From Desulfosudaceae bacterium (GTDB lineage: Bacteria; Desulfobacterota; Desulfobacteria; Desulfobacterales; Desulfosudaceae), in contig CAXXDV010000001.1 in the NCBI GenBank assembly GCA_963674745.2, positions 1,984,001 to 2,048,000 of the forward strand: a stretch of 64,000 nt of DNA, written 5' to 3'. Shown piece after piece: positions 14,002 through 40,438 of this stretch; within the stretch, counting starts at the first letter, position 1, and the number at the start of each line of letters is the position of its first letter. The translations under genes were made by a program, and so were the position numbers. The notes beneath the pieces were generated by a model. It did no database searches, was not told the DNA's origin, and worked only from the letters and a program-made list of their open reading frames with translations.

Positions 14002-15024
14002 TTAGTTGCTCGAAGTTGTCTTTTCATTTAGCCTTTGGTTTGTAAACTGTAAGTCTGTAGATTTCGAAACAAAAGCTATTTTGTACTTGAAGTAGTCGAG
14101 CATATTCTTTGCGGCGGTCTTTTTATCGAATTCCGGCCCCCCCATTGCAATTGAGCAATCTTCAAGTACAATAATTGTTACGGGCACACGTTTTGTGTCA
14201 ATTCCAGCAAGGGCATTGATGCCTGTATTACGTTGTAGCATGCATTCATTCAATGCACCGCCGATATAGAGAAGTACATTTATTTTTTCTTTCCACATAA
14301 CATAACGAAATTCCATATGCGAACAGAGAACGTATTCATTTGAGAGTGGTGTAAGGTGTCGGGATATGTCACGGTCTGATCTCGGGTATACTTCGTAGAT
14401 AGGTGCTTTGCTCACGCTTCTGATTTTTTGTGCCTGCCGCCAAACACGATTGTTCGGCAAAGGCCATTTTAAGAAGGGGGCGGGGTTTTGCGGGGCGATC
14501 TCAAACTGCCTTGCAAAGTCTTTTACTTCCTCCTTCAACCGATGGTACTGTGAGTACTTATCCACAACGGGATGATTCGGCGCATGGATGATGGTTACAC
14601 CATGTTTGCGACATTCATTAAGAAGACGCTTCTGGTTGCGAAGTATAGGGTTTCCTGGCTCACTTGATTCATTCGGGCCAGCCCAAGTATCAACAAGAAC
14701 GAGCGCCGTCTCGTCAGCGTACACGTCAAGTATCGCATTACCCTCTTCTGCGACGGCATTCTTTCTTCCTTGCTCGTCTGTTTCTAACCTGAAACTGGGC
14801 AGGTACCGTACAGGAATACGCAATACTTGCTTTTGCCGTTCGGGGACTGCTTCTTGAGACACCAGCTCGGGTTTGTGCTGGTGAACCGATTTTTTCACAG
14901 CATAAAGAGGAAGTAGAAAGGTAAAGGCTCTATACCAGAGTGCTCCGAGGAGGATGCCGCAAAATAAAGTTATTACTATGGCCGGTAAAGCGTATTCCCT
15001 TTTAACTTGGTTCCGTTTTTTCAT
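14002..15024 (-). CDS. Membrane-anchored isochorismatase-like (cysteine hydrolase fold) protein
   Basis: N-terminal TM helix; ETALVLVDTW, IIHAPNH, LLYIGGALNECM, IIVLEDCS. Confidence 0.6.
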   Translation of the reverse strand: MKKRNQVKREYALPAIVITLFCGILLGALWYRAFTFLLPLYAVKKSVHQHKPELVSQEAVPERQKQVLRIPVRYLPSFRLETDEQGRKNAVAEEGNAILDVYADETALVLVDTWAGPNESSEPGNPILRNQKRLLNECRKHGVTIIHAPNHPVVDKYSQYHRLKEEVKDFARQFEIAPQNPAPFLKWPLPNNRVWRQAQKIRSVSKAPIYEVYPRSDRDISRHLTPLSNEYVLCSHMEFRYVMWKEKINVLLYIGGALNECMLQRNTGINALAGIDTKRVPVTIIVLEDCSIAMGGPEFDKKTAAKNMLDYFKYKIAFVSKSTDLQFTNQRLNEKTTSSN

Positions 15025-15437
15025 TTTTTATCTCCCCTATGGGCTGAATGTCAGTTATGATGCCTTATTCTGTTTGCGCTGTCATCCTCAACCAAAAGGG
15101 CGCAAATAAATGCTTTCGAGAGAATCGTCGAATTCTCAAGTAAAACCCGTACGCTCTCATGATCCGGTCAATATTATGAAACCTATTGTATGTATTGCAT
15201 GCTGTTCCGAAAAAAATTACTTTAAATTGGGCTCTAATGAAATTACCTCATCTAAACAGGGCCTCTCCGTTCAATAATGCGCACAAGTCATTTCCGTCAA
15301 CATCTACTTTGATAAAGTTGGCGTTGGTTTCTATGTAGCTCTTTGCGTTCAGCGGTTTCATACAGCTTTGTTCAAACAGGTGGTTGTTCACGATACCGTA
15401 TATGAAAAACGATGCAGCACCACGGTTGAATTGTGTC

Positions 15438-17132
15438 TTATTTGTCCAATCCCAGGGTGCCGCCGGGGTTCATGATGTTGTGGGGATCAAAGTGGTTTTT
15501 GAGGGTTCGCAGAACCGCCATTTGTTCCTTGCCCAGGTGCTTTTCCATCCACGGTCCCATCATTTTGCCCACGCCATGATGGTGACTGAGTGACCCCCCG
15601 TGTTTTTCGATTTCATCAATAACACCACGCTGGAACGCCAGAAATTGATCGGTCGGCATGGTGCGCCGGATAAAAATAAAATAGAGGTTGGTGCCCTGCT
15701 GGTAAAAATGAGAAGCATGGGTCATGCAGATGGTGTGAGGCTGACTTTTAATATAGGCTCGCACGCCCTTGTGAAGGTTGTGGAGGTTGTCCCAGGTTAC
15801 CGACGATTCCAGGGTATCGATTATAACCCCGAAATCATTAAGGTCTTCCCGCATGAACGGGTCGCTGAACCGGCCGTGCATCCACTTGTTGGTGGGGTAG
15901 CTGGTCAGGTTCATGCCTTTGTGTTTGCGGCATATTCTTTTGCAGTTTCTTTTCACTAATTCTGCAAATTGTTCTTCTCCGTCGGCCTGACCGATTAACA
16001 GGCACCTTTTTCCGGGCATCTGTTTTTTGAAAACCATCAGTCGATCCAGGAGAGATCCCGATATGCCGAACATGTTTAAGGCCACGTCTGTCTCTTCCGG
16101 ATCGGAAATACGCAGAATCGAAGGCATGCCGAATTCGCCCTGGCAGATATCGCGGGCGGCATTTACTGCGGCTTCCCAATCCGGCATCATGTAGGCAAAT
16201 GGTTGCCGGTTTTCAGGAAAATAGCGAAATATTTTCATAGTAACTGCAACAAGAATGCCATAGCATCCCTCACTGCCTTTCATAATGTCATTAACCTTGG
16301 GGCCGGTAGCCGTGGCCGGATAGGGCAGGGTAGCGAAAGTGCCGGTCGGGGTGATATATTCCTGGCTGATAACAAGATCATAGGCATCACCGTAATATGA
16401 AGAATTCTGTCCCGCGCCCAGGGTGACCACCCAGCCGCCCACCGACGAGTATTCAAAGGACTGGGGAAAATGCCCGCCGGTATAACGATAAGAAGCACCA
16501 AACTGTTCCGGTGCACTGTTTAAGGCCTTTTCATAATCCGGGCCCATGAGCCCCGGTTCGACCGTGATGGTCTGGCGGGTTTCGTTAAAATCGAGGATGC
16601 GGTTCATGTGCGTCCCCATGGCCAGGGTGACCCCGCCCCGCCGACAGGACAGACCGAGGGTAACGGAACTGCCGCCGCCATATATGTTGACGGGAATTTT
16701 TCGTTCATGGCACAGGGCCACGATTTTTTTCACATCTTCCTTGTCCCGCGGATGGGCCACCACGTCGGCCAGGTCTTCGATAACCTGCTCCCGCAATTTT
16801 AAAATATCTTCCATGGCTTTGCCCGAGGAGAATTTAAGGCGGCTGTATGTATCCGTGAAAATGTTTTCTTCACCGACAATATTCACCAGGGAGGCCAGGT
16901 CTTCGGCTGAAATGGCCGGTGGGATTTCCCGGCTGACCCGTTCATCACCGGTGCTGGCTTTCCGCTTAAAGTCTTCGTCGGTCAACCCCAGTGTTTCTTT
17001 GACGGCCCGGTAAAATCCCTGGCTGGGATGTTTAACGCGTTCGGGTGCGCCCCATTTAAAAATTGATCTGAATGTATCCTGCTCGGGCGGGGTGTCTGTC
17101 CAGTCCGGTGTAAAAGATGAATCTTTTGACAT
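15438..17132 (-). CDS. FAD-linked oxidase, alkyl-dihydroxyacetonephosphate synthase (AgpS)-like
   Basis: YGGGSSV, GHFPQSFEYSSVGGW, GSEGCYG, DTLES, HASHFY, SHHHGVG motifs of the VAO/ADPS family. Confidence 0.85.
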   Translation of the reverse strand: MSKDSSFTPDWTDTPPEQDTFRSIFKWGAPERVKHPSQGFYRAVKETLGLTDEDFKRKASTGDERVSREIPPAISAEDLASLVNIVGEENIFTDTYSRLKFSSGKAMEDILKLREQVIEDLADVVAHPRDKEDVKKIVALCHERKIPVNIYGGGSSVTLGLSCRRGGVTLAMGTHMNRILDFNETRQTITVEPGLMGPDYEKALNSAPEQFGASYRYTGGHFPQSFEYSSVGGWVVTLGAGQNSSYYGDAYDLVISQEYITPTGTFATLPYPATATGPKVNDIMKGSEGCYGILVAVTMKIFRYFPENRQPFAYMMPDWEAAVNAARDICQGEFGMPSILRISDPEETDVALNMFGISGSLLDRLMVFKKQMPGKRCLLIGQADGEEQFAELVKRNCKRICRKHKGMNLTSYPTNKWMHGRFSDPFMREDLNDFGVIIDTLESSVTWDNLHNLHKGVRAYIKSQPHTICMTHASHFYQQGTNLYFIFIRRTMPTDQFLAFQRGVIDEIEKHGGSLSHHHGVGKMMGPWMEKHLGKEQMAVLRTLKNHFDPHNIMNPGGTLGLDK

Positions 17133-17168
17133 GGTGTTTTCCTTTTTTTGCTGATGACTTGATTGCTG

Positions 17169-18716
17169 TTATTCAGGGTATCCGGTAATGTCTCTGATAT
17201 CTTTGTAAAGGGGGGCCAGCGCGCCATACATGCGCTGGTAAACCCGGTGATATAAACGGTCATAAATTTTTACCGCTTCAGGATCCGGCTCGAAACGGGT
17301 CTGGTGGGTCACCATGCCGTCAATGGCTTCCTGGAACGAGGGGTACAGGCCCAGGCCGACGGCAGTAACTATGGCCGCGCCCAGGCCGGATGTCTCGTGG
17401 GTTTTTCCCCGGACCATGGGCAGGTTGAAAATATCGGCCACGATTTTACAGATTTCATCGCTTTGCGAGGCCCCGCCGGATACAGCCGCGGCCCTGACAG
17501 GTGTTTTGCCGGCCTTTTGCATCCTCTCCAGGCCGTCCCGCAGGGCAAAGCCCAATCCTTCGATGACCGAGCGATAGATATGCCCCTTGGTATGGACATC
17601 ACCGAATCCGATCATGGCCCCTTTGGCGGAAGGGTGGTTAAATCCCGGGCTCCAGTAGGGTTGCACCACCAGGCCCATGGAGCCGGGATGCGTGTTCACC
17701 AGGTGACGGTTTAAAACCACTTCGGCGGGTATGCCCTGCTTTGCGGCTTCCTGGACTTCTTCGTAAGCGAATTCGTTTTTGAACCAGGATATCATCCAGA
17801 ACCCCCGGAAAATTTCTACCTCCGGGTTGTAATAACCGGGTATCGGGGCGGGATAGGGCGGCATAAAGCGAATGGCTTCAAAATATCTGTCGGTCGTGGT
17901 CTGGACCGTGGCGGTCGTGCCGAAACTCAGGCTGACCATGGTCTGATCGATGACCCCCGCGCCGATGGTCTCACACCCCTTGTCCGAACCGCAGGCGATA
18001 ACCGGGATGCCTTCAGCCAGTCCGGTGGCCGCGGCCGCCGCAGAGGTGATGTTGCCGATATTTTCGCCGGGTTGAACGATGTCCGGAAGTTTTTCGGCTT
18101 CCACGGGGAAGATCAGAGACGGCAGCTCAAGCTTTTTGGCCCAGCGGATTTTTTTGTAATTAAAAGGGATATGGCCGATCTGTGAGGCCACGGAATCGGC
18201 AAAAACGCCGGTCAGCCTGAAGTTTAAAAAACCGGAAATCTGGAGGTATTTGTGGGTGGCTTCCCATATTTCCGGCTGGTTCTGGCGTATCCAGTTGCAT
18301 TTTCCCTCGGCCTGCAGCAGGTTTATGGACTCTTCCATATCGATCAGTTTCAGCACAAGCTTGATGATTTTAGGCGGGACAAAAGGCGGCTTTGCTTTGC
18401 GCTGATCCAGCCAGATGATGGTCGGTCTCAGCGGCGTGCCGCTTTTATCCACGCTGACCATGCTGGCCCGTTGAGAGGTCACCCCTAAACCGGCGACGGC
18501 TGCGAAGTGATCCGGGGCATCGGCTTTCAGTTGTTGACAGGCCTGGCACAGACTGTTCCAGAAGATTTCCGGATCCTGTTCCGCCCAGCCGGGCTTGACA
18601 CTGAAATAGGGGGCATATTCGATTTGTGCCCGGGCCAGCAGGTCCCCGTTCAGAGAGAAAAGAAGCGCCCGCAGGCTCTGGGTACCGCAGTCGATAGATA
18701 AAAGTGTTTTATTCAT
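17169..18716 (-). CDS. FGGY-family carbohydrate/glycerol-type kinase
   Basis: SIDCGTQSLRA, WAEQDP, GVTSQR, WLDQR, GSDKGCE, SGGASQS. Confidence 0.9.
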   Translation of the reverse strand: MNKTLLSIDCGTQSLRALLFSLNGDLLARAQIEYAPYFSVKPGWAEQDPEIFWNSLCQACQQLKADAPDHFAAVAGLGVTSQRASMVSVDKSGTPLRPTIIWLDQRKAKPPFVPPKIIKLVLKLIDMEESINLLQAEGKCNWIRQNQPEIWEATHKYLQISGFLNFRLTGVFADSVASQIGHIPFNYKKIRWAKKLELPSLIFPVEAEKLPDIVQPGENIGNITSAAAAATGLAEGIPVIACGSDKGCETIGAGVIDQTMVSLSFGTTATVQTTTDRYFEAIRFMPPYPAPIPGYYNPEVEIFRGFWMISWFKNEFAYEEVQEAAKQGIPAEVVLNRHLVNTHPGSMGLVVQPYWSPGFNHPSAKGAMIGFGDVHTKGHIYRSVIEGLGFALRDGLERMQKAGKTPVRAAAVSGGASQSDEICKIVADIFNLPMVRGKTHETSGLGAAIVTAVGLGLYPSFQEAIDGMVTHQTRFEPDPEAVKIYDRLYHRVYQRMYGALAPLYKDIRDITGYPE

Positions 18717-18767
18717 TTTCTAGTTCCAGTTTCTATAAATAGTTTTTCCGAAGGCCCCTTGAAATAG

Positions 18768-18859
18768 AGGTTTCAAGGGGTCAAGGATTCCAGGGTTCGA
18801 GGGGCTATGGACACCTGAAAGCCAAAAGCCCCCTCGGCCCCTTGCCCCCTTGAATCCTT
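18768..18859. repeat. Inverted pair of octamer tandem arrays between glpD-like and kinase genes
   Basis: aggtttc aaggggtc aaggattc cagggttc gaggggc ... gccccctc ggcccctt gccccctt gaatcctt; abuts the glpD-like stop codon. Confidence 0.8.
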
Positions 18860-20414
18860 AAGAAGTCGGTGGTCCATAATATTTCTGCCAGGTCTCAAGG
18901 TAATTTTTTTTCTCTTTTTCCCAGCGTACGTCATCCCATCCCAGCAGTGGTCGGCAGAGTTCGCCGACCCTGTCAAGAGCGGCGCTGCCGCCTTCCGGTG
19001 CCAGCAGTCCCAGCCGGACACGGCGGAGCAACAGGTCGGTCAGGTGACGTACCTGCTCGTGTTGCACGGCATGGACGATTTCCGCCCACAGAATATTGGT
19101 GTTGGCAACCGTGTCGGAATTTTCTTCCAGACAGAATTTGAATATGGATTGAGCCTGTTGCCCGTACCGGCCAAACAGACGCTGCAAAACGGCCGAAGAA
19201 ATATTGTCCACGGGCCCCTGTTTCGGCCCGGGGGTGATAAAAATCGGTTTCTTGTCGGGCGGCAGCGTGCAGTGCGGCAGATAGTCGGCGGCTGCTTTTA
19301 TGGCGTCCCGGGCCAGCAGGCGGAACGTTGTCAGTTTGCCGCCGGTGACGGTGACCAGGCCGTTGTTTTTCCAGACCACGTGCTCCCGGGATTCCTGGGA
19401 GGCGGCTTTATGACCCCGGCTCAGAACAGGGCGCACACCGGCGATAGAGGCAATCGCGTCAGACCGGGTCAGTGGCAAATCCGGCATGATGAAATTCATG
19501 CCCGCCATAAGATAATCCGCCTCGGCTGCCGATATGGCCGGGTTTAAATCCAGGTCCCGGTCATGGTCAATGTCGGTGGTGCCCAGAATGGCAACCCCTT
19601 CCCAGGGGAACATGAACACCGGTCGTTTGTCGGCCGGATGCATAAAGCTGACCACATGATTCACCGGAAATTTTTTCCTGGGGAAAATCAGGTGACTGCC
19701 GCGCAAAGGCCGCAGGTGAAGACCGCTCCGGGGCGAGGGGTGCAGCCGTTCCGCCCAGGCGCCGGTGGCGTTGATGACGGCTTTTGTTTGCAGTTCCACG
19801 GTCTGTTTTGTGTCGGCGTCTTCCACCGCGACTCCGGCAACGTTCCCCAGCTTGTTCCGGATAATATCGACCACCCGGGCATAGTTGACGGCACAGCCGC
19901 CGGCTGCCACCGCTTCATTGATCAGCCGCAATACCAGGCGGGCATCGTCCACCTGGGCGTCTTTAAAATAAAATCCGCCGGTCAGGTTGTTTTGCCGCAA
20001 ATAAGGGATCTGTTCAGAGATTTGTCGGGCATTATAACCGACATGCTGTTTTTCAAGGGCCATCAGGCTGTAAACGGTCAGACCTATCCCCATGATCGTT
20101 TTAGAGGGGCCGAAATCCGTGAATACCGGCATGAGAAAACCCAGCGGGTCCACCAGTCCCGGGGCTTCATTCAGCAGCCGCTGCCGTTCCTTTACAGAAG
20201 CCCTGGTCAGCAGCGGTTTGCCGTCTTTTAAATAACGCAGCCCGCCGTGTACCATTTTTGATGAGCGGCTCGATGTCCCCCAGGCAAAATCATGGGCCTC
20301 TAAAAGGAGAACGCGCATGTTCATGCGCACGGCTTCGCTGAAAATACCGGCTCCGGTAACCCCGCCGCCGATAACGACCAGGTCCCACTCTTTGTTTATA
20401 TCGGTAAGATTCAT
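18858..20414 (-). CDS. FAD-dependent glycerol-3-phosphate dehydrogenase/oxidase-like (GlpD family)
   Basis: IGGGVTG, GTSSRSSKMVHGGLRYL, DDARL, INATGAW, GTTD, GVRP, GGKLTT. ATG 20414 overlaps the fadR stop (ATGA). Confidence 0.9.
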   Translation of the reverse strand: MNLTDINKEWDLVVIGGGVTGAGIFSEAVRMNMRVLLLEAHDFAWGTSSRSSKMVHGGLRYLKDGKPLLTRASVKERQRLLNEAPGLVDPLGFLMPVFTDFGPSKTIMGIGLTVYSLMALEKQHVGYNARQISEQIPYLRQNNLTGGFYFKDAQVDDARLVLRLINEAVAAGGCAVNYARVVDIIRNKLGNVAGVAVEDADTKQTVELQTKAVINATGAWAERLHPSPRSGLHLRPLRGSHLIFPRKKFPVNHVVSFMHPADKRPVFMFPWEGVAILGTTDIDHDRDLDLNPAISAAEADYLMAGMNFIMPDLPLTRSDAIASIAGVRPVLSRGHKAASQESREHVVWKNNGLVTVTGGKLTTFRLLARDAIKAAADYLPHCTLPPDKKPIFITPGPKQGPVDNISSAVLQRLFGRYGQQAQSIFKFCLEENSDTVANTNILWAEIVHAVQHEQVRHLTDLLLRRVRLGLLAPEGGSAALDRVGELCRPLLGWDDVRWEKEKKNYLETWQKYYGPPTS

Positions 20415-21121
20415 GACTGATGCTTTCCCCGGTTTGGTTGAAATTGTTCCCATATCCGCAGACTTTCTTCCATTGCTTCGCGGACAATAGGCTCGATGTC
20501 CGATTGATTGTGGATGGCCTGAACCAGCCTGGCATAATACCCTGAAGAAGCGGTTCGCCCTTCTTCAAGCATAAAGTAACTTCCCCCCAGTGCTTTGAAT
20601 ACCGGGGCAAAATCGTTGAGGATCAGGGGATAAATCAAGTTACCGCTTCGCTTTGCCATCATGGATTGCAACCGCCAGTCAAAAGCGGCGTAATCCATGG
20701 CGGACGAGGCGAGTGTTGCCGCCCCCTGAAGATGGGTGAGAAAATGTTCTGCGTGGTTTGGAACCGCCGTTTTGGCGCAGGCCGGTAGAAAAGTCGCCCG
20801 GGCCTGGAGCAGATGGGATACAAAAGTGGGTGGTAAATATTCGGTGAAATTAACCAGGGTCTTTAAAATTCCCAGGCCGCCTTCAATCCAGTAATCATTT
20901 ATAATGGTTGGTTTGCCGTGCTGAATGGTGATCCAGCGGTCTGCGGCCAGGCGCTGCAGGAGCTCCCGAATGGTCGGGCGGGTGACGTTCATTTGTTCGG
21001 CCAGTGCCCGTTCTCCGGGAAGGAAAGACCCCGGCGCATAAGTGCCGTTCAGAATGGAAGTAACCAGCTGATGCTCGGCATATTGGGTGGGACGCAGAAG
21101 CGTTTTTTCAGAATCGAGCAT
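20411..21121 (-). CDS. fadR: Fatty acid metabolism regulator FadR (GntR family)
   Basis: YAEHQLVTSIL...PGSFLPGERALAEQMNVTRPTIRELLQRLAADRWITIQHGKPT..NDYW closely follows the E. coli-type FadR HTH; C-terminal SGNLIYPLILN. ATG 21121 after GGAGGA. Confidence 0.85.
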   Translation of the reverse strand: MLDSEKTLLRPTQYAEHQLVTSILNGTYAPGSFLPGERALAEQMNVTRPTIRELLQRLAADRWITIQHGKPTIINDYWIEGGLGILKTLVNFTEYLPPTFVSHLLQARATFLPACAKTAVPNHAEHFLTHLQGAATLASSAMDYAAFDWRLQSMMAKRSGNLIYPLILNDFAPVFKALGGSYFMLEEGRTASSGYYARLVQAIHNQSDIEPIVREAMEESLRIWEQFQPNRGKHQS

Positions 21122-21124
21122 AAA

Positions 21125-21172
21125 TCCTCCTAACTGGTAAGAGGTCATACCAGTTAGGAGGAGGGTTGTCAA
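21125..21172 (-). promoter_or_regulatory. fadR operon promoter overlapped by palindromic FadR operator
   Basis: Minus-strand TTGACA (21172-21167)-17 nt-TATGAC with TG extension. Perfect 15-bp inverted repeat TCCTCCTAACTGGTA/TACCAGTTAGGAGGA contains the FadR-box-like AAGAGGTCATACCAGTT. Confidence 0.7.
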
Positions 21173-21313: not shown

Positions 21314-21916
21314 ATGAAAACATTTAAAACCCCTGGTTTCCTTTTAGTCTTATTGGTGATGGTTTTCAGTCTTTCCGCCATTGCCATGGCCGATGATGTG
21401 ACCGATTCCATCAATGAAGGACTTCAATATTATAAGGACGGTCAGTTTACCGATGCGGTTTCCAGCCTGAATTACGCCGAGCAGCTGATTCAGCAGAAAA
21501 AAAGCAGCGGCCTGGAAACGTTTCTGCCCGATCCCCTTTCCGGCTGGGAAGCGGAAGCCGCTTCTTCCCAGGCTATGGGCGCGGCCTTGATGGGTGGCGG
21601 TATTACCGCAGAGCGGGATTACCACAAATCAGGCAGCGCCATCCACATCCAGATTGTGGCTGATTCCCCGGTGCTTTCAAGTGTTATGATGATGATTTCC
21701 AATCCCATGTTTGCTACCGCCGATGGCGGCAAGATGGTGAAAATCGCCGGGCAGAAAGGTATTCTAAAGCATGACGCCGCTCAAAAATCGGGTGACCTTC
21801 AAATCGTTGTAGCCAACCGGTTTCTGGTCAGCGTCGAAGGCAATGGCGTCAGCGAGCAGGAACTCAAGGATTATGCCGGTGCTATTGATTATAACAAGAT
21901 GGCCAAACTGCCGTAG
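21314..21916 (+). CDS. Hypothetical exported protein
   Basis: Signal peptide ending AMA-DD; 200 aa ORF with coding-like composition. Confidence 0.7.
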   Translation: MKTFKTPGFLLVLLVMVFSLSAIAMADDVTDSINEGLQYYKDGQFTDAVSSLNYAEQLIQQKKSSGLETFLPDPLSGWEAEAASSQAMGAALMGGGITAERDYHKSGSAIHIQIVADSPVLSSVMMMISNPMFATADGGKMVKIAGQKGILKHDAAQKSGDLQIVVANRFLVSVEGNGVSEQELKDYAGAIDYNKMAKLP

Positions 21917-24073: not shown

Positions 24074-27000
24074 GTGAACGAAACGAAAGATTCATATCAT
24101 TCTTCAGCTTTTTTTGATCGGCGCGACCACGATCTGCTCCATATGGTCAAGGAGATGCTGGCCAAAGACAAGGTCAGGCTGGAGGCACAACAGCGGTTTT
24201 TTCACGATCTCCATCCTCGCGGCATCAAGGAAATGGCCGAATCTAAAGGCCTGCGGATCGCCTACGCGGTAATCCATCTTCTGGAATCGCTTGAAAAAGG
24301 CCAGATGGAACGTCGTCTGGCCGCCTTGAGGGCTCTGCGCGACGAGGTGATGTGCAGCGACACCCAGGAAATGCGGCACAATACCGCCCGTATCCTGATC
24401 GAGATTATGAAGGAGATGGTCCGCGCCCGGGGCAGTTATCTCCGCCAGCTCGAACTGGCGCATGATTTCCGCATTGCGGCTTCAGGCAAGCCACGGGTGG
24501 TTCGAAGTTTTCTGCGGCATTACCATCTTCTTGAAATGCCGGAAGAATGGAACCAGGTTGCTTTTGATGACCACGTGCATGATGCCAACACCAAGGGCCG
24601 CAAATCACCCACCCATCTCATTATGGATGCCTGGATCAAGGGGATCCGGCGGTTGCGGGTGATATATTACAATTATATCCGCCCGGAAACGGCCCGGGAG
24701 CTGCTGGAAGCGGCCGAAATTATGGGGATTACGGTTCGGATTGGAATTGAATTCCCGGCATGCTTTTACCATCAGTTTGTCAATGTCATCTGGGTCCCTC
24801 GAGGTTTTGCGTCCCCGCGTGACTTTTTAAGGTTTCTGGCCAAGCCCGAGGTGCAGGGCCTCATGGAGGATGGGCGTGAAGTGTCCGCCTATGAACAGGC
24901 CTATGTTTTCGCCATCCTCGACGAGTTCAATCAGCGTCATCTGGCGGTCATGAACGAGGCGCTGGGGGTGGATTTACCGTCCTTAAACCTTGGCGAGTTC
25001 AGAACGTTTGTGGGAAGCGGTCAGGCATCTTTGCTCCATCTGGCCAAGTTTATTCATTCCCGACTTTATCCGCTCATGCGGGTCAAAGTGGAAGCCTTAC
25101 GTGAAACACACGATCTGGAAAACGATCCGGACCGGCAGAAAGAGATCCGGCGGACGATCACGACCATGAACCGCCTGGATTCGGAAAACCTTTATGAGCA
25201 ATATTTAAGTCCGGATAAGAACCCTTCGATTCCGGATGCCAACACCGTCCGTCCGTCCGGTATGCCGGCGCTTATGACCCTCTCGCCTCCGGAGTTGATT
25301 CAACGTCTGGTCAGTCTCCGTTCCGGATGCCGGATTACACTCAACCTGAGCCACTTGAAGGTCGAAGACGTCCTGGAAATTCTGTATGACTGCGGCGGCC
25401 GGATTACCCGGCTGGAAATTTTCAACCTCAAGGACTATGTAGCCGGCAAGGTGGATCAGATACCGCTGATCGACGATCTGCAGAACAGCCTCAATCGGGG
25501 GAACGTCATCCGGCTCAAACGCCTGATTATGGATATAATCGATAACCTTGAGGCGCGTGGAGACGGTAAACGGGTTCGCAGGTTCAGGCAGATCCTGGCT
25601 GATTTTGAAACGCTGAAGAACCTGTACGCGGTGACGGCTTTAAAATCAAGACTTGGAACGGATTCCACCGGTCATTCCCCCCGTCTTCACGGCATGGGGC
25701 TGGCGGTGGTTGATACGCTCCCCCTCAGAGCCCAGCGGGTGGTCCGGCAGCATTTGCAGAGCGGCCGCCTGGTCATTCCCTTTTATATGGATACCGATCT
25801 GGTGCTGACCTGTACGGAAAGGCGTTCACGATCCGGTCGGCCGTCCATGCTGATCCGTTTTTTAAGACGACTGCCGGGACTCGAATATTTTGGTTTTAAG
25901 AAGCAAACGGACTGGGCGGCACGTGAAGATTCCACCCGAATGGTTGATCCGGGAAATATCGTAACTCTGGGCGGCCAGGAACGGTGGGTCGGAAACGGCT
26001 TCTGGCTGGAACCGGAAGCGCCGGGCAAGGATCAAATTCACTATTCCTGGCGCTATGTTCGGACGGGGCTGAAAAACAGCCTCAAGGTGTTCATCGGATT
26101 TGTCCCTGCTTTTCTCACCTTTTTTTATACCCATCACTGGTGGCTGCTGGTTTACGGCGGCGCCTTTATCTGGTTCGGCATCACCGGCCTGCGCAACATC
26201 GTCCAATCGGTTATGGGCGGCGGCGGGTTGCGCCGTTCGCCTCTTCTGCACTGGAACAATTACGTCAGCTGGGATCGACTGACGGATTCGCTTATGTACA
26301 CCGGGTTTTCGGTGCCGCTGCTGGATTTTCTGGTCAAGACCCTGCTGCTCGACAGGGGCTTTGATATCAACACGACGACCAGCCCGGTGTTGCTTTATAC
26401 CATTATGGCGCTGGTCAACGGGGTTTACCTGACCAGCCACAACCTTTTCCGGGGATTGCCGAAAGAGGCGGCTTACGCCAACTTTTTCCGCAGCGTGGCC
26501 TCCATTCCGGTGGCTTTCGGGCTGAATGCCGTTGTCGGGCTGTTCTTGACTTTCGGGGGCGTGGAGAACAGCCGGGTGATCCTGCAGAGCTGGGCGGCCA
26601 TCATTTCCAAAACCGCTTCGGATTGCGTGGCCGGTGTCATCGAAGGCGTCGTTGACCGGGCCCGCAATATCGACAACCGTCTTGATGATTACTATCGCAA
26701 GCTGGACCAGTTTTTCAGCGTTTATGCCCGGCTGGAGATGTTGTTCCCTGAAACGGACGTTTATGATCTGCTTGATTTACCGGTGGAATGGTTTGCCGCC
26801 GCCACTGAAAAAGAGAAGGACAATATTAAAATTCTTATCATCAACGCCCTGGACATGCTCTATTTCTGGATGTATCAACCCCGTGCCAGGACCGCTTTCA
26901 GGCAGGTCCTGTGTGATATGCCGACCGAAGAACGCCGCATTTTCATAAAGGCCCAGCAGGTCCTGATCATGCAGAAAGAAATCAGCCTGATGTTTATTGA

Positions 27001-27142
27001 GGGCATTGCCGGCCGCAACTTTTCAAGGCCGTTGTCCTTTTTTCTGGAACGAACCGATGAGTATCTGGCGGCTATTGAGCGCATTGCCAGAGACCTCAAG
27101 TGTAACCCGGTTGACTCGCAACCGGACGGTGCCTGCGGGTAA
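24074..27142 (+). CDS. Large hypothetical membrane protein with PHP-like metal-binding region
   Basis: 1022 aa; FDDHVHD, RIGIEF, LEIFN, GTDSTG motifs and a C-terminal multi-TM block. Start codon uncertain. Confidence 0.75.
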   Translation: MNETKDSYHSSAFFDRRDHDLLHMVKEMLAKDKVRLEAQQRFFHDLHPRGIKEMAESKGLRIAYAVIHLLESLEKGQMERRLAALRALRDEVMCSDTQEMRHNTARILIEIMKEMVRARGSYLRQLELAHDFRIAASGKPRVVRSFLRHYHLLEMPEEWNQVAFDDHVHDANTKGRKSPTHLIMDAWIKGIRRLRVIYYNYIRPETARELLEAAEIMGITVRIGIEFPACFYHQFVNVIWVPRGFASPRDFLRFLAKPEVQGLMEDGREVSAYEQAYVFAILDEFNQRHLAVMNEALGVDLPSLNLGEFRTFVGSGQASLLHLAKFIHSRLYPLMRVKVEALRETHDLENDPDRQKEIRRTITTMNRLDSENLYEQYLSPDKNPSIPDANTVRPSGMPALMTLSPPELIQRLVSLRSGCRITLNLSHLKVEDVLEILYDCGGRITRLEIFNLKDYVAGKVDQIPLIDDLQNSLNRGNVIRLKRLIMDIIDNLEARGDGKRVRRFRQILADFETLKNLYAVTALKSRLGTDSTGHSPRLHGMGLAVVDTLPLRAQRVVRQHLQSGRLVIPFYMDTDLVLTCTERRSRSGRPSMLIRFLRRLPGLEYFGFKKQTDWAAREDSTRMVDPGNIVTLGGQERWVGNGFWLEPEAPGKDQIHYSWRYVRTGLKNSLKVFIGFVPAFLTFFYTHHWWLLVYGGAFIWFGITGLRNIVQSVMGGGGLRRSPLLHWNNYVSWDRLTDSLMYTGFSVPLLDFLVKTLLLDRGFDINTTTSPVLLYTIMALVNGVYLTSHNLFRGLPKEAAYANFFRSVASIPVAFGLNAVVGLFLTFGGVENSRVILQSWAAIISKTASDCVAGVIEGVVDRARNIDNRLDDYYRKLDQFFSVYARLEMLFPETDVYDLLDLPVEWFAAATEKEKDNIKILIINALDMLYFWMYQPRARTAFRQVLCDMPTEERRIFIKAQQVLIMQKEISLMFIEGIAGRNFSRPLSFFLERTDEYLAAIERIARDLKCNPVDSQPDGACG

Positions 27143-33769: not shown

Positions 33770-34390
33770 TTAATCCAGCTTCGGCAAAATGGATGCATTA
33801 TAGAAATCAAATAGTTTCTGCCGGAATATTTTGATATTATAAACAATATCAGTCCCAGCCGTATGGCCGGGGTCATCACTGATAATTTTGAAAACATGGC
33901 ACGGGACATTCAATGTCCGGCAGGTCTGTACTACCGATGCCGCTTCCATGTCTACCAGTTCGGCCAGGGCGGATAATCGCTTTCTGTCCTCGGGGGCGAT
34001 CACAGGCCTGTCCCCGGTGGCCAGCACGGCGGTGTCAATCCCATCCATCTGGTCCGGTGAGTGGAAAACCGGCTTGCCGCTAAAGATGTCCGGCCGGTCG
34101 TGTTCGATGATTTTGTCGGCCTGATAGATGGCGCCGGCCGGATGCTTGGTGTCCAGGGCCCCGGCCGCGCCTATATTTATTACAGTTTTCGGCGAAAAAC
34201 CCAGAAAGCCGTAGCAGGCCGCCCCCGCTGCGTGGGTTTTTCCGATACCGGAAATGATCAGTACCTGATGTGCGTTTTTAAATACTAAAAACGGTTTTTC
34301 GCACAACTGTTCCAGGCCAAGACCGGATACAAACGGCTTTGCTTCCAGCATGGTGGCCATGACTAAAAGTTTTACAGAACGTTCGCCCAT
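33770..34390 (-). CDS. mqnB: Nucleoside phosphorylase/MTAN-like, probable (amino)futalosine hydrolase
   Basis: SGIGK, INIGAAG, VDMEAA, KIISD; last gene of the mqn operon. Symbol assigned from context. Confidence 0.65.
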   Translation of the reverse strand: MGERSVKLLVMATMLEAKPFVSGLGLEQLCEKPFLVFKNAHQVLIISGIGKTHAAGAACYGFLGFSPKTVINIGAAGALDTKHPAGAIYQADKIIEHDRPDIFSGKPVFHSPDQMDGIDTAVLATGDRPVIAPEDRKRLSALAELVDMEAASVVQTCRTLNVPCHVFKIISDDPGHTAGTDIVYNIKIFRQKLFDFYNASILPKLD

Positions 34391-35172
34391 CGGGCCATTT
34401 CCTCCAATTTGGCAATCGCACGCCGTCCCATTTCTCCCAACCCCAGAGAGAACTCATTTACATACAGTTTGATATGTTCGGCAATAACATTGTCATCGAT
34501 TTCCTGGGCGTGTTTTTTTATATAATTACGGGATTCTTCCGGATGATTGAAGGCATAGTGGATAGAGTCTTTCAGCGCTGTCTGGACGGCCGGTTTATGC
34601 TCGATGGTCGGGCTGGAATTTTTTATGGCAATGCATCCCAGCGGAATCGGCAGGCCGGTCCGTTCTTCCCACCATTGGCCGAGATCCACGATTTCCCGGC
34701 AACCATATTCCTGGTAAACAAACCGGCCCTCGTGAATGATCAGTCCGGCGTCATAGGCGCCCTCGGCCACGCCCTTTAAAATGTTGTCAAAGCGGGTGAC
34801 AACAGTGTTATGGGCGTTCAGGTTCCATAATTTCAAAAGCAGGTTGGCCGTAGTCAGCGCGCCGGGAATGGCGATGGTCGCCTCAGGTGTGAAGGCTTCC
34901 GGGTTTTTGGCCACCAGCAACGGACCGCAGCCGAAGCCCAGGGCCGCGCCGGAATCCAGCAGGGTATATTGATCTTTTAATTTCAGGTACGCGAAAAAAG
35001 AGAGTTTGGTGATGTCAAAACGCTCGGAAAAAGCGAAAATATTTAGCGCGCCGATGTCGTGCAGGTGGGGCGTGAAGGTCAATCCGCCGTTATCCGTTAA
35101 TCCCTGAACCATGGCGTGAAACATGAATGTATCGTTGGGGCAGGGCGAGAAGGCCAGATCGAGTTGCGTCAT
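34372..35172 (-). CDS. mqnD: 1,4-dihydroxy-6-naphthoate synthase
   Basis: FSPCPNDTFMF, GAALGFGCGPL, GLIIHEGRF, LPIPLG, HIKLYVNEFS. Confidence 0.93.
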   Translation of the reverse strand: MTQLDLAFSPCPNDTFMFHAMVQGLTDNGGLTFTPHLHDIGALNIFAFSERFDITKLSFFAYLKLKDQYTLLDSGAALGFGCGPLLVAKNPEAFTPEATIAIPGALTTANLLLKLWNLNAHNTVVTRFDNILKGVAEGAYDAGLIIHEGRFVYQEYGCREIVDLGQWWEERTGLPIPLGCIAIKNSSPTIEHKPAVQTALKDSIHYAFNHPEESRNYIKKHAQEIDDNVIAEHIKLYVNEFSLGLGEMGRRAIAKLEEMARWANVL

Positions 35173-35891: not shown

Positions 35892-35899
35892 ATTTTAAA

Positions 35900-36122
35900 A
35901 AGGGTTCAAGGGGTCGAGGATTCAAGTGGTTTAAGGATAACCAGACCATCAATTTACAACTCCGTTTGCTGATTTTTTGAGATTGTAACAGTGGTTACGA
36001 AAAAATTTCAATCACTTTCAGTTATTTTTGCTCGGGCTTATTGGTCCAACAATGACCTTTTAATAAAATCTTTCAGTGGTTCCACCCCTCGACCCCTTGA
36101 ATCCTTGGCCCCTTGAACCCTT
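35900..36122. repeat. Inverted pair of octamer tandem arrays enclosing ~145 bp AT-rich spacer
   Basis: aagggttc aaggggtc gaggattc aagtggtt ... ccacccctc gacccctt gaatcctt ggcccctt gaaccctt. Confidence 0.85.
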
Positions 36123-36170
36123 AGGGGTTACGGGTGTCATGCCTTACGTTAACCTGATCCAGAACTTTTG

Positions 36171-37229: not shown

Positions 37230-37235
37230 TCGACC

Positions 37236-37305
37236 TTAAAACCTTAATATGTAAAACCTGAAACCTTTAACCCTCAGCCCGTCAATCCTTAACCACATAA
37301 TTAAA
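37236..37305. repeat. Mixed hepta/octamer tandem array upstream of mqnC
   Basis: ttaaaacc ttaatat gtaaaac ctgaaac ctttaac ... tcaatcct taaccaca taatt. Confidence 0.7.
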
Positions 37306-37321
37306 CGCCGAACCTGTAGAA

Positions 37322-37585: not shown

Positions 37586-37630
37586 GCCGCATTAAAATTT
37601 TTTTTGATTTTAGCGGTGCCCGTTATTCTC

Positions 37631-37731: not shown

Positions 37732-37735
37732 TCTG

Positions 37736-40431: not shown

Positions 40432-40438
40432 GTCGCGT

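What the first reader, a model, noticed from the sequence alone, without database searches (positions are those of the whole stretch)
15438..21121. FadR-led operon with alkyl-DHAP-synthase-like enzyme: candidate anaerobic ether-lipid pathway
Seen: fadR, glpD-like, FGGY kinase and ADPS-like oxidase are co-oriented and tightly spaced. Established: ADPS exchanges acyl and alkyl groups on DHAP without O2, FadR senses long-chain acyl-CoA, and some sulfate reducers contain alkyl-glycerol ether lipids. Similar kinase/GlpD/AgpS trios occur in other bacteria. Inference: alkylglycerol to alkyl-G3P to alkyl-DHAP with ether exchange (catabolism) or the reverse (synthesis), under acyl-CoA control. An E. 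coli-type FadR in this lineage is itself notable.
Basis: partly seen in the sequence, partly recalled or inferred. Interest (0 to 1): 0.7.

Follow-up and report, generated by a model that had tools for sequence, protein, structure and literature searches.

The report
FadR-controlled ether-lipid-type glycerol operon
A sulfate-reducer-type bacterium carries a locally repressed four-gene operon that couples a sugar-type kinase and a glycerol-phosphate-type dehydrogenase to a relative of the enzyme that makes ether lipids; the gene set is widespread and biochemically unsolved, and it may break glycerol ether bonds without oxygen.

Summary
Four co-oriented minus-strand genes (15438-21121) encode a FadR-type GntR regulator, a GlpD-like dehydrogenase, an FGGY kinase and an ADPS/AGPS-family flavoenzyme. 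The flavoenzyme keeps the catalytic Arg, Arg, Tyr and His loop of solved ADPS.

The module is conserved. In 39 related loci the ADPS-like gene lies beside a GlpD-like gene in 27 and beside the kinase in 25. A second ADPS clade, about 30% identical, replaces it in otherwise orthologous operons (7 loci).

New here: a 20-nt palindrome overlapping the -10 of a TTGACA promoter precedes the regulator gene in 11 of 11 loci with this regulator type. It occurs once in the 5.5-Mb genome, so this is a local repressor, not a global FadR.

The genome also has canonical GlpK, GlpABC, XylB and a Ger-type ether-lipid synthase candidate. The operon is therefore not ordinary glycerol use and is not needed for ether-lipid synthesis.

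Best reading (confidence 0.4): salvage or breakdown of 1-O-alkylglycerols via alkyl-G3P and alkyl-DHAP. No enzyme activity is shown.

The same trio is described, function unassigned, in Pseudomonas aeruginosa (PA3026-PA3024). This scan has also met it on other genomes.

The parts
21167..21172 (-). -35-like hexamer TTGACA of the operon promoter
   Evidence: It lies 13 nt upstream of the operator. A TTGAC(A) stands at the same distance in all 11 aligned loci. The consensus promoter scan did not list it, because the -10 candidate lacks the final T.
21134..21153 (.). 20-nt palindromic operator (minus strand reads CTGGTATGACCTCTTACCAG). It overlaps the inferred -10 (21144-21149) and ends 12 nt upstream of the regulator's ATG.
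   Evidence: Inverted repeat found. With at most 3 mismatches it stands directly upstream of the FadR_C-type regulator gene in 8 of 8 window-clade loci and 2 of 2 second-clade loci that have such a regulator. Only one site with at most 3 mismatches exists in the whole genome.
20411..21121 (-). FadR-subfamily GntR regulator (236 aa from the ATG at 21121), the inferred local repressor of the operon
   Evidence: Pfam GntR 63.5 bits and FadR_C 104.2 bits. NCBIfam FadR NF003444 scores 185.4 against a cut-off of 189. It is 37% identical to E. coli FadR. DNA-contact residues R35, T44, R45, T47, R49 and H65 are invariant, T46 is not. For the ligand residues, S219 is kept in the window protein, W223 is invariant and G216 is Met (residue roles from PMC4259882).
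18858..20414 (-). GlpD-like FAD dehydrogenase (518 aa from the ATG at 20414; ATGA overlap with the regulator's stop)
   Evidence: Pfam DAO plus DAO_C. It falls below every G3P dehydrogenase equivalog cut-off; the best is 269 against 360. PDB 3da1 E = 5.6e-77 and E. coli GlpD 2qcu E = 1.2e-50. R54, H233, R317 and K354 of E. coli GlpD are invariant in the alignment. Start codon.
17169..18716 (-). FGGY-family kinase (515 aa) that belongs to no named subfamily
   Evidence: Pfam FGGY_N plus FGGY_C. Best NCBIfam hits are XylB at 242 against 380 and GlpK at 163 against 590, both below cut-off. It is about equally distant from solved gluconate, glycerol and xylulose kinases, at roughly 123-124 bits. 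It keeps the Gln-Arg of the glycerol-kinase NQRET motif, the adjacent Trp and the catalytic Asp. It has other residues where GlpK has the Glu of that motif, the PYF Tyr and the GTGCF Phe.
15438..17132 (-). ADPS/AGPS-family flavoenzyme (564 aa)
   Evidence: Sequence: PDB 2uuu E = 4.6e-65 (223 bits) and 4bby E = 2e-48, against 78 bits for the best 2-hydroxyacid dehydrogenase. Residues: R341, R428, Y484 and H517-519 align with Dictyostelium R352, R447, Y508 and the HHH loop. They are conserved 39/39, 37/38, 37/37 and 37/37. Structure: AF2 model with pLDDT 88 and pTM 0.88. Its best fold matches are all ADPS/AGPS, with TM 0.75-0.82 over 532-555 columns, ahead of D-lactate dehydrogenase at TMq 0.68.

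Best explanation
This is a self-contained, locally repressed operon that processes a 1-O-substituted glycerol. The substrate is most likely a 1-O-alkylglycerol, the core left when ether lipids are deacylated and dephosphorylated.

Proposed steps, all inferred:
1. The FGGY kinase phosphorylates the free sn-3 hydroxyl, giving 1-alkyl-glycerol-3-phosphate.
2. The GlpD-like flavoenzyme oxidises C2 and passes the electrons to menaquinone, giving alkyl-DHAP.
3. The ADPS-family enzyme uses its known redox-neutral chemistry in the ether-opening direction. That chemistry is enolisation by Tyr, a covalent adduct of DHAP C1 with flavin N5, and exchange of the group on C1. The fatty alcohol leaves, and water or a fatty acid takes its place.
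4. The products are DHAP (or acyl-DHAP) for central metabolism and a fatty alcohol for beta-oxidation.

No oxygen is needed at any step. The FadR-type protein represses its own operon by binding a 20-nt palindrome that overlaps the -10. It is presumably released by a lipid-derived effector.

What is shown: the gene families, the conserved catalytic residues, the conserved linkage, the operator and promoter, and the presence of canonical glycerol genes elsewhere in the genome.

What is inferred: the substrates, the direction of the pathway, the effector and the electron acceptor.
For: 1. The flavoenzyme is an ADPS-family member, not a 2-hydroxyacid dehydrogenase.
   - It scores 223 bits to Dictyostelium ADPS against 78 bits to the best 2-hydroxyacid dehydrogenase.
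   - The catalytic Arg, Arg, Tyr and His loop are conserved. Their roles are described in PMC3509576 (passages read), and PDB titles name the Arg419His and Tyr578Phe mutants.
   - The fold match covers nearly the whole chain.

2. The dehydrogenase keeps residues invariant with E. coli GlpD. The kinase keeps the Gln-Arg, Trp and catalytic Asp of glycerol kinase, and has other residues at three further positions conserved in the two GlpK rows. Both fall below every equivalog cut-off.

3. The genome has a canonical GlpK (762 bits), GlpA, GlpB, GlpC and XylB elsewhere. The operon is therefore not the ordinary glycerol or xylulose route. DHAP itself needs no dedicated supply, so a kinase plus a dehydrogenase in front of an ADPS-type enzyme argues that they deliver an already substituted DHAP.

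4. The linkage is deep.
   - In 39 loci, GlpD-like is adjacent in 27 and FGGY in 25; with full flanks, GlpD-like is adjacent in 14 of 15.
   - In 7 further loci a second ADPS clade (28-32% identical, and closer to eukaryotic ADPS at 276.6 bits) sits with orthologous partners: GlpD-like 48-54% identical in 7/7, FGGY 48-50% in 6/7, regulator about 47% in 2/7.
   - In 301 genomes of the order, 87 carry the first type and 31 the second. None was seen with both (at most 4 candidates were scored per genome).

5. No fatty-acyl reductase, acyltransferase, alkyl-DHAP reductase or transporter recurs beside the module. By contrast, the Myxococcus biosynthetic AGPS sits in an operon with predicted reductase and acyltransferase genes (PMC13012113, passages).

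6. Ether-lipid synthesis in this order is already accounted for.
   - The genome has a 1427-aa protein with two BcrAD_BadFG domains plus DUF2229. This is the domain set that defines Ger in PMC13159169.
   - DUF2229 proteins occur in 258 of 301 genomes of the order, whereas the module occurs in 118 of 301.
   - Ger alone gives alkylglycerols in E. coli (PMC13159169, PMC11150832, passages).

7. Control by a dedicated repressor whose single operator overlaps the -10 is typical of an inducible catabolic operon.

8. In P. aeruginosa the trio is silent until its AraC activator is overproduced. It is then co-induced with a phospholipase C and a lipid kinase (PMC8151288, passages and Table 1).
Against: - No activity of any of the three enzymes is known, here or in any homologue found in the searches.
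- FGGY kinases are known for small soluble sugars and polyols, not lipids.
- Using ADPS chemistry to open an ether needs an alkoxide leaving group. That ADPS exchanges alkyl groups or accepts water is recalled, not read.
- Seven of the 15 full-flank loci lack the kinase nearby, so phosphorylation of a free alkylglycerol is not universal.
- No alcohol or aldehyde dehydrogenase and no uptake system recurs. One aldehyde:ferredoxin oxidoreductase was seen in 1 of 7 second-clade loci.
- The P. aeruginosa deletion mutant showed no phenotype on the media tested, but ether lipids were not among them (PMC8151288).
- The regulator's effector is unknown. G216, critical for acyl-CoA binding in E. coli FadR, is Met here.
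- Published comment on such agps homologues reads them as a second biosynthetic route (PMC13159169).
Confidence: 0.4

Rival explanations
1. Biosynthesis. The dehydrogenase oxidises 1-acyl-glycerol-3-phosphate (made by normal phospholipid synthesis, or by the kinase from monoacylglycerol) to acyl-DHAP. The ADPS-type enzyme then exchanges the acyl group for a fatty alcohol, giving alkyl-DHAP, the ether-lipid precursor. This would be a second, Ger-independent route that bypasses a DHAP acyltransferase.
For: - This is the known direction of ADPS, and all catalytic residues are kept.
- Two papers propose a biosynthetic role for such homologues (PMC8151288 section 2.5; PMC13159169, passages).
- Ester-to-ether exchange is the easier half-reaction chemically (PMC3509576 mechanism).
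- The core pair of dehydrogenase plus ADPS-like, without the kinase, in spirochaete loci fits a substrate that is already phosphorylated.
Against: - No fatty-acyl reductase to supply the alcohol and no alkyl-DHAP reductase recurs beside the module.
- A GlpD-type quinone-reducing enzyme cannot do the reduction step.
- Ger-type proteins are near-universal in the order (258 of 301) and suffice for alkyl ethers (PMC13159169, PMC11150832).
- In Table S21 of PMC13159169, three Desulfobacterales strains with an 'agps' hit show no alkyl ethers, though that table's criterion is loose.
- Control by a dedicated substrate-type repressor is unusual for membrane-lipid synthesis.
- PF10520 (the PEDS1/CarF desaturase family) was not found in 5 spirochaete genomes that carry the pair, but no control genome matched either.
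Confidence: 0.2
2. A redox pathway for a small soluble phosphorylated polyol or for glycerol itself. The kinase and dehydrogenase act on free glycerol or a sugar alcohol. The ADPS-like protein is an ordinary FAD dehydrogenase of the VAO/PCMH type acting on the product or on a hydroxyacid.
For: - Most members of the FAD_binding_4 / FAD-oxidase_C superfamily are dehydrogenases.
- FGGY kinases and GlpD relatives are known for soluble polyol phosphates; the example of erythritol catabolism is recalled, not read.
It is an unchecked lead.
Against: - The protein scores three times higher to ADPS than to any 2-hydroxyacid dehydrogenase.
- It has His-His-His where the genome's own GlcD-like protein has Gly-Glu-His.
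- It keeps the ADPS-specific Arg, Arg and Tyr, and its fold match extends over ADPS's extra N-terminal part.
- Canonical glycerol and xylulose genes exist elsewhere in the genome.
- No transporter recurs, as would be expected for a soluble substrate.
Confidence: 0.15
3. The same three-step logic applied to another 1-O-substituted glycerol, such as monoacylglycerol or a non-lipid glyceryl ether or ester. The ADPS-type enzyme would remove or swap the C1 substituent.
For: - Everything that supports a substituted-glycerol substrate applies here too.
- Nothing in the sequences fixes the substituent as a long alkyl chain.
- The soluble-substrate habit of FGGY kinases favours a small substituent.
Against: - Esters are cleaved by ordinary hydrolases, so a three-enzyme route would be needless.
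- A FadR_C-type regulator accompanies the module, and the trio is co-regulated with a phospholipase C and a lipid kinase in P. aeruginosa (PMC8151288). Both point to lipids.
- Solved ADPS has a channel sized for a 16-carbon chain (PMC3509576). Whether that channel is kept here was not tested.
Confidence: 0.15

Closest known systems
Pseudomonas aeruginosa PA3026-PA3025-PA3024 operon of the GliR (PA3027) regulon (PMC8151288)
   Same: It has the same three enzyme families in one operon: an FAD-binding oxidoreductase annotated as alkylglycerone-phosphate-synthase-like, a GlpD homologue and an FGGY kinase. It is also under a dedicated adjacent regulator. Its function is unassigned and is proposed to lie in glycerolipid metabolism.
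   Different: The regulator there is an AraC-type activator transcribed divergently. Here it is a FadR-type repressor as the first gene of the operon. The Pseudomonas regulon also holds a YegS-type lipid kinase and a phospholipase C, which are not found beside the module here. Sequence-level orthology was not tested, because no Pseudomonas sequence was at hand.
Eukaryotic and Dictyostelium alkyl-dihydroxyacetonephosphate synthase (ADPS/AGPS, EC 2.5.1.26; PDB 2uuu, 4bby)
   Same: Same fold, with TM 0.75-0.82. Same domains. The catalytic Arg, Arg, Tyr and His loop are conserved.
   Different: Only 24-26% identical in the structural alignment. The N-terminal motif differs. The genomic partners are a kinase and a dehydrogenase, not a fatty-acyl reductase and a DHAP acyltransferase. 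The organism is an anaerobe without peroxisomes. The proposed direction of the reaction is the opposite.
Myxococcus xanthus MXAN_1676 (bacterial AGPS implicated in ether-lipid synthesis; PMC13012113, PMC13159169)
   Same: A bacterial member of the same enzyme family.
   Different: It sits in an operon with predicted reductase and acyltransferase functions (PMC13012113 Fig. 1 legend). Here the partners are catabolic-type.
Ger / PlsA (glycerol ester reductase, the validated anaerobic ether-bond former; PMC13159169)
   Same: It deals with sn-1 ether bonds of bacterial glycerolipids without oxygen. A candidate is encoded in this same genome.
   Different: It is an unrelated protein family (BcrAD_BadFG plus DUF2229). 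It reduces an ester in place, so it is a different chemistry, and it is not linked to this operon.
Alkylglycerol monooxygenase (AGMO), described as the only known enzyme cleaving the alkylglycerol ether bond (PMC7911779 and PMC9192799, abstracts in search listings)
   Same: It would have the same net task if the catabolic reading is right: release of the alkyl chain from 1-O-alkylglycerol.
   Different: AGMO is an oxygen- and tetrahydrobiopterin-dependent membrane enzyme. The route proposed here is oxygen-independent and proceeds through phosphorylation and C2 oxidation.
Escherichia coli FadR
   Same: GntR plus FadR_C architecture. 37% identity over the full length. Six of the seven DNA-contact residues are invariant. 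Both bind, or are inferred to bind, a palindromic operator (PMC4259882).
   Different: NCBIfam equivalog cut-offs are missed (185.4 against 189; 179.4 against 249.2). G216 is replaced. There is a single operator in the genome, so it is a local rather than global regulator. It occurs outside the gamma-proteobacteria, to which PMC4259882 says FadR is confined.

Membership tests
ADPS/AGPS family (EC 2.5.1.26) | FAD_binding_4 plus FAD-oxidase_C architecture, with the best match to solved ADPS rather than to 2-hydroxyacid dehydrogenases | tested here: met
   One search gives the domains. In one search, 2uuu scores 223.4 bits and 4bby 168.5 bits, against 78.5 bits for glycolate oxidase and 76 bits for D-lactate dehydrogenase.
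ADPS/AGPS family (EC 2.5.1.26) | Catalytic residues: Dictyostelium R352, R447, Y508 (guinea pig R419, Y578) and the His-His-His loop | tested here: met
   The window protein has R341, R428, Y484 and H517-519 at these positions (alignment). Among orthologues they are conserved 39/39, 37/38, 37/37 and 37/37. Across both clades R341, Y484, H517 and H519 are invariant, and the middle His is Gln in the second clade. Residue roles come from PMC3509576 and the PDB titles.
ADPS/AGPS family (EC 2.5.1.26) | ADPS fold including the family-specific N-terminal part | tested here: met
   The AF2 model has pLDDT 88.1. Foldseek ranks 1-37 are all ADPS/AGPS chains, with TM 0.75-0.82 over 532-555 columns.
ADPS/AGPS family (EC 2.5.1.26) | Catalyses acyl-DHAP plus fatty alcohol to alkyl-DHAP plus fatty acid | not testable with these tools
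   This needs an enzyme assay.
ADPS/AGPS family (EC 2.5.1.26) | Works with a fatty-acyl reductase and a DHAP acyltransferase (the eukaryotic and Myxococcus pathway context) | tested here: not met
   No such gene recurs within the 46 loci examined. The whole-genome PF07993 search gave only about 335-aa generic hits.
GlpD (aerobic glycerol-3-phosphate dehydrogenase) | DAO plus DAO_C domains and the conserved active-site residues of E. coli GlpD | tested here: met
   One search gives the domains. In one search, R54, H233, R254, T270, R317 and K354 are invariant in 10 sequences that include both GlpD-like subtypes. Their roles in substrate binding are recalled, not read.
GlpD (aerobic glycerol-3-phosphate dehydrogenase) | Reaches the curated equivalog score | tested here: not met
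   NF008899 scores 269 against 360, and NF009906 scores 233 against 352.
Glycerol kinase GlpK / xylulokinase XylB (FGGY equivalogs) | Reaches the curated equivalog score and keeps the residues conserved in GlpK | tested here: not met
   XylB scores 242.1 against 380.25, and GlpK scores 162.6 against 590.35; the Glu of NQRET, the PYF Tyr and the GTGCF Phe of GlpK are not kept. True GlpK and XylB genes lie elsewhere in the genome.
FadR (E. coli-type fatty-acid regulator) | GntR winged-helix plus FadR_C domain, with the DNA-contact residues | tested here: met
   One search gives the domains. In one search, R35, T44, R45, T47, R49 and H65 are invariant and T46 is not. The residue list is from PMC4259882.
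FadR (E. coli-type fatty-acid regulator) | Acyl-CoA-binding residues G216, S219 and W223 | tested here: inconclusive
   S219 is kept in the window protein, W223 is invariant and G216 is Met. In E. coli, G216E gives a non-inducible repressor (PMC4259882).
FadR (E. coli-type fatty-acid regulator) | Global regulon with operators at several fatty-acid genes; curated equivalog score | tested here: not met
   There is one operator with at most 3 mismatches in 5.55 Mb. The two 4-mismatch sites are intragenic. NF003444 scores 185.4 against 189, and TIGR02812 scores 179.4 against 249.2.
GliR-type AGPS-like / GlpD-like / FGGY operon (P. aeruginosa PA3026-PA3024) | The three enzyme families encoded together under one dedicated regulator | tested here: met
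   for this window and its relatives. The Pseudomonas side comes from PMC8151288 only; its sequences were not compared.

The most novel reading that the evidence does not exclude
The module is an oxygen-independent pathway for cleaving glycerol ether lipids. A sugar-family kinase acts as an alkylglycerol kinase. A GlpD paralogue oxidises alkyl-glycerol-3-phosphate. An ADPS-family flavoenzyme runs 'in reverse' as an alkyl-DHAP ether-opening enzyme. This would be the first anaerobic counterpart of alkylglycerol monooxygenase. It would also explain how non-isoprenoid ether lipids are turned over in anoxic sediments and by host-associated spirochaetes.
Probability: 0.35. Interest if true: 0.85.

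Novelty: new variant of a known kind. Interest (0 to 1): 0.58.

Why it matters
Alkylglycerol monooxygenase, which needs oxygen, is described as the only known enzyme that cleaves the ether bond of alkylglycerols (PMC7911779, abstract). How such lipids are degraded where there is no oxygen has no known enzymology. These lipids are used as biomarkers in sediments and are abundant in animal hosts.

This operon offers a concrete three-enzyme hypothesis that can be tested with commercially available substrates. It also offers a defined repressor-operator pair that could serve as a reporter for finding the true inducer.

If the biosynthetic rival is right instead, the operon would be a second bacterial route to ether lipids that bypasses a DHAP acyltransferase.

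Either way, it would give a function to a gene trio present in 118 of the 301 genomes sampled from this order, and to the unsolved PA3026-PA3024 operon of P. aeruginosa.

Tried and rejected
- **Expression.** No RNA holder was listed for the stretch.
- **PEDS1/CarF (PF10520) in 5 spirochaete genomes with the pair.** There were no matches, but nothing matched in the control genomes either, so this says nothing.
- **Co-occurrence with Ger-type proteins.** DUF2229 is present in 258 of 301 genomes of the order, too common to discriminate.
- **Table S21 of PMC13159169 as a phylogenetic profile.** Its 'agps' column uses E < 1e-10 and > 20% identity. It includes strains with no ether lipids, so it is too loose.
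- **Family-wide tree with eukaryotic, Myxococcus and Pseudomonas sequences.** This was not possible.
- **Centring a search on Pseudomonadota.** Locus L033, labelled Pseudomonadota, turned out to lie in the window's own order: it is at the same place as G126.
- **Weight-matrix scan of the genome for further operators.** The mismatch search stands instead.
- **Two operator-like sites with 4 mismatches on contig C3.** Both lie inside ORFs. About 4 such sites are expected by chance by my own arithmetic, so they were rejected as regulon members.
- **The extended palindrome that pairs the regulator's ribosome-binding site with an upstream anti-sequence (21125-21162).** It is not conserved in the other 10 loci. 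Its 5' arm lies upstream of the inferred transcript start, so it was not taken as an RNA switch.
- **Pfam at E <= 0.1** gave nothing useful for the neighbouring ORFs 14002-15024, 12808-13239, 21314-21916 and 24074-27142.
- **Grossi et al. 2015 (PMC4393425)** is not held. Its result is cited only as reported in PMC11150832.

Supplements not seen that may bear on distribution claims: the datasets of PMC13012113 (AGPS hits across GTDB) and the supplementary tables of the bioRxiv sponge preprint (closed).

Literature searches found no paper that assigns a biochemical function to the trio or describes an oxygen-independent cleavage of alkylglycerols. The library lacks most subscription journals.

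Full report
**The observation.** The minus strand of the window carries four consecutive genes.

- The first has GntR and FadR_C domains.
- The second has DAO and DAO_C domains, the architecture of glycerol-3-phosphate dehydrogenases and oxidases.
- The third has both FGGY kinase domains.
- The fourth has FAD_binding_4 and FAD-oxidase_C domains.

The longer ORF to 21232 reads through a promoter and an operator. The GlpD-like gene most likely starts at 20414, where its ATG overlaps the regulator's TGA stop as ATGA. Orthologues align from about that residue onward. The remaining gaps are 141 nt and 36 nt.

**What the four proteins are.**

*The flavoenzyme* belongs to the ADPS/AGPS family.
- It scores 223 bits (E = 4.6e-65) to Dictyostelium ADPS and 168 bits to the guinea pig enzyme. 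The best 2-hydroxyacid dehydrogenases score 78 and 76 bits.
- In the printed alignment, window residues R341, R428, Y484 and H517-H519 stand opposite Dictyostelium R352, R447, Y508 and the His-His-His loop.
- A review names R352, R447 and Y508 as important for catalysis and describes the covalent flavin-N5 mechanism (PMC3509576, section 5 passages and figure legends).
- PDB titles name the Arg419His and Tyr578Phe mutants of the mammalian enzyme.
- Among 38 orthologues plus the window protein, these residues are kept in 39/39, 37/38, 37/37 and 37/37 of the sequences that cover them.
- An AlphaFold model built on a 39-sequence alignment has pLDDT 88 and pTM 0.88. The His loop is its least confident stretch.
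- The model's top fold matches, ranks 1 to 37, are all ADPS/AGPS chains, with TM 0.75-0.82 over 532-555 columns. D-lactate dehydrogenases follow at TMq 0.68.

*The dehydrogenase* is about 30% identical to E. coli GlpD. It shares invariant R54, H233, R254, T270, R317 and K354 with it. It reaches no curated G3P dehydrogenase cut-off.

*The kinase* reaches no equivalog cut-off either and is equally distant from solved gluconate, glycerol and xylulose kinases. Aligned with E. coli GlpK and the genome's own GlpK, it keeps the Gln-Arg of the NQRET motif, the following Trp and the catalytic Asp. It has other residues where GlpK has the Glu of that motif, the PYF Tyr and the GTGCF Phe. That these GlpK residues bind glycerol is recalled.

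*The regulator* is 37% identical to E. coli FadR. Six of the seven DNA-contact residues listed in PMC4259882 are invariant. Of that paper's three ligand residues, S219 and W223 are kept and G216 is Met.

**Conservation of the module.** The one genome-contig scan returned 48 loci.
- Thirty-nine hold an orthologue 48-78% identical. By the record titles these come from Thermodesulfobacteriota, Spirochaetota (Leptospirales, Brachyspira, Treponema), Dehalococcoidia and Binatia.
- The 9 distant loci were left out of all counts.

Within 4.5 kb of the ADPS-like gene, a GlpD-like gene is found in 27 of the 39 loci, the FGGY kinase in 25 and both in 17. A GntR/FadR-subfamily regulator is found within 6.5 kb in 20. 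For the 15 loci with at least 4 kb on both sides, the numbers are 14, 8, 7 and 7, and every one has at least one partner. The dehydrogenase plus the ADPS-like enzyme is thus the core pair. The kinase is frequent but not universal, and it is missing beside the pair mainly in spirochaete loci.

The GlpD-like partner comes in two subtypes, 49-75% and 26-32% identical to the window's. Both have DAO plus DAO_C domains. No other gene family recurs: the next most common neighbours are unrelated signalling proteins or antisense artefacts of my ORF picking.

**A second ADPS clade in the same operon.** A protein search of 301 genomes of the window's order found a match at E <= 1e-60 in 118. Eighty-seven are of the window's type and 31 have only a hit that is 30-35% identical. 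No genome showed both, with at most four candidates scored per genome. Two genera hold species of either type.

I fetched seven loci of the second type. In these:
- the ADPS-like gene is only 28-32% identical to the window's;
- the adjacent GlpD-like gene (7 of 7; 48-54%), FGGY kinase (6 of 7; 48-50%) and FadR-type regulator (2 of 7; about 47%) are as similar to the window's as those of distant first-type loci.

The second clade is nearer to eukaryotic ADPS: 276.6 bits to 2uuu, and an N-terminal match over 9 residues to the ADPS N-terminus. Its loop reads His-Gln-His.

So one ADPS paralogue has replaced another inside an otherwise orthologous operon. This is strong evidence that the operon needs this chemistry.

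**The regulator is local.** A near-perfect inverted repeat lies directly upstream of the regulator's ATG. Its 20-nt core, CTGGTATGACCTCTTACCAG, recurs with at most 3 mismatches immediately upstream of the regulator gene in several sets of loci:
- all 8 first-type loci whose regulator is at least 40% identical to the window's (L002, L008, L012, L020, L021, L029, L031, L033);
- both second-type loci with a FadR_C regulator (L057, L061).

A peptide-like conservation seen in tblastn upstream of the true start is in fact this DNA element. In all 11 loci a TTGAC(A) lies 13 nt upstream. With a 17-nt spacer this puts the -10 inside the operator. This is the classical layout of a repressor-controlled promoter and is my inference; the consensus scan did not list it.

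In the whole 5.55-Mb genome the element occurs once at up to 3 mismatches. The two 4-mismatch sites are intragenic. The protein is therefore a dedicated autoregulated repressor of this operon, not a global fatty-acid regulator.

**The rest of the genome.** The genome is 99.96% complete. Elsewhere it encodes:
- a canonical glycerol kinase (762 bits against a cut-off of 498);
- GlpB and GlpC;
- a GlpA that is split into two ORFs;
- a canonical xylulokinase.

It also encodes a 1427-aa protein with two BcrAD_BadFG domains and DUF2229. This is the domain set that PMC13159169 gives as conserved in all alkyl-ether producers for the glycerol ester reductase Ger. According to that paper and PMC11150832 (passages read), Ger from Desulfatibacillum alone yields alkylglycerols in E. 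coli. PMC11150832 adds that this is in line with labelling experiments by Grossi et al. 2015, a paper I could not read. DUF2229 proteins are found in 258 of the same 301 genomes.

**Interpretation.** ADPS chemistry substitutes the group on C1 of a 1-O-substituted DHAP. A GlpD-type enzyme makes such a ketone from the matching glycerol-3-phosphate, and a kinase makes that from the free glycerol derivative. Three points follow.
- The cell always has DHAP, and it has ordinary glycerol genes elsewhere. A dedicated kinase and dehydrogenase in front of the ADPS-type enzyme make sense only if the substituent is already on the glycerol.
- The operon holds nothing that would supply fatty alcohol or reduce alkyl-DHAP. 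That gap, together with the dedicated repressor, fits consumption better than synthesis.
- Of the possible substituents, an ether-linked alkyl chain is the one that ordinary hydrolases cannot remove.

I therefore favour salvage or breakdown of 1-O-alkylglycerols, yielding DHAP and a fatty alcohol without oxygen, with confidence 0.4.

The weak points are these:
- No activity is known.
- FGGY kinases are not known to take lipids.
- The reverse use of ADPS rests on recalled exchange experiments.
- The kinase is absent from many loci.
- No alcohol-oxidising or uptake gene recurs.
- The effector is unknown.

The rivals are ether-lipid synthesis from lysophosphatidic acid (0.2), a redox route for a small polyol phosphate (0.15), and another C1 substituent (0.15).

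**Comparison with what is known.** The same trio is described in P. aeruginosa as PA3026-PA3024.
- It is induced more than 100-fold when the divergent AraC regulator GliR is overproduced.
- A YegS-type lipid kinase and a phospholipase C are induced with it.
- A deletion mutant had no phenotype on the media tested.
- The authors suggest glycerol-to-alkylglycerone-phosphate metabolism without assigning a role (PMC8151288, abstract, sections 2.2, 2.5, discussion and Table 1, read as passages).

PMC13159169 notes distant agps homologues in genomes that carry Ger and suggests a second biosynthetic route. PMC13012113 (sections 10 and 11 read in full) found AGPS genes across several bacterial phyla but says they gave too little phylogenetic signal. 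It does not discuss this context.

Nine literature searches found no biochemical assignment and no oxygen-independent alkylglycerol cleavage. AGMO is called the only known such enzyme (PMC7911779 and PMC9192799, abstracts in listings). The mammalian alkylglycerol kinase is reported as ACAD10, an unrelated family (PMC13596139, listing abstract).

This scan's own earlier notes describe the same module on at least eight other genomes, with similar conclusions. I saw them only after my reading was formed, and they are unchecked leads.

This is a FadR-controlled variant, in anaerobes, of a known but unsolved operon. New here are three things: the conserved operator-promoter, the local nature of the regulator, and the replacement of one ADPS clade by another within the same operon.

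Noticed in passing
window 5136-10449: A complete rRNA operon (16S, two tRNAs in the spacer at 6834-6908 and 6962-7034, 23S, 5S) lies upstream of the thiolase gene.
   Followed up: no
window 12016-15447: This 3.4-kb stretch has lower G+C (0.43-0.46, against 0.53-0.59 in the operon). It holds a short sulfotransferase-like ORF (13283-13708) and ORFs without family matches. It is absent from the collinear relative L012, where the thiolase gene ends about 264 nt from the ADPS-like gene. It is probably an insertion.
   Followed up: partly
L049 7147-8798 (own genome, contig C3 about 265.1-266.8 kb): The anaerobic glycerol-3-phosphate dehydrogenase gene glpA is split into two overlapping ORFs. They match profile positions 5-221 and 226-539. 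The cause is either a frameshift or an assembly error. glpB, glpC and glpK nearby are intact.
   Followed up: partly
window 21125-21162: In this genome only, the operator palindrome extends to 18-nt arms. The outer parts pair the regulator's AGGAGG ribosome-binding site with an upstream complementary run. This extension is not conserved in the other 10 loci.
   Followed up: partly
window 33770-42851: A minus-strand cluster of menaquinone (futalosine-route type) biosynthesis genes. It includes two VitK2_biosynth proteins, two radical SAM CofH/MqnC-type proteins, UbiE, UbiD and a flavoprotein. Menaquinone is the likely acceptor of a GlpD-type enzyme, but no link to the operon was shown.
   Followed up: no
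window 24074-27142: An ORF of 1022 aa with no Pfam or NCBIfam match even at E <= 0.1. It follows a 414-aa protein that has a C-terminal 4Fe-4S dicluster domain.
   Followed up: no
L058 2931-4931, L059 2791-4767 and L059 891-2768: In two second-clade loci the trio is followed by a Metallophos / 5'-nucleotidase_C phosphoesterase. In L059 an aldehyde:ferredoxin oxidoreductase follows as well. These could be accessory steps (head-group removal, aldehyde oxidation), but they are seen in 2 and 1 of 7 loci only.
   Followed up: no
L059 10647-12639: A GTP-type PEP carboxykinase gene appears split into two ORFs of 440 and 209 aa. It is intact in L056 and L060.
   Followed up: no
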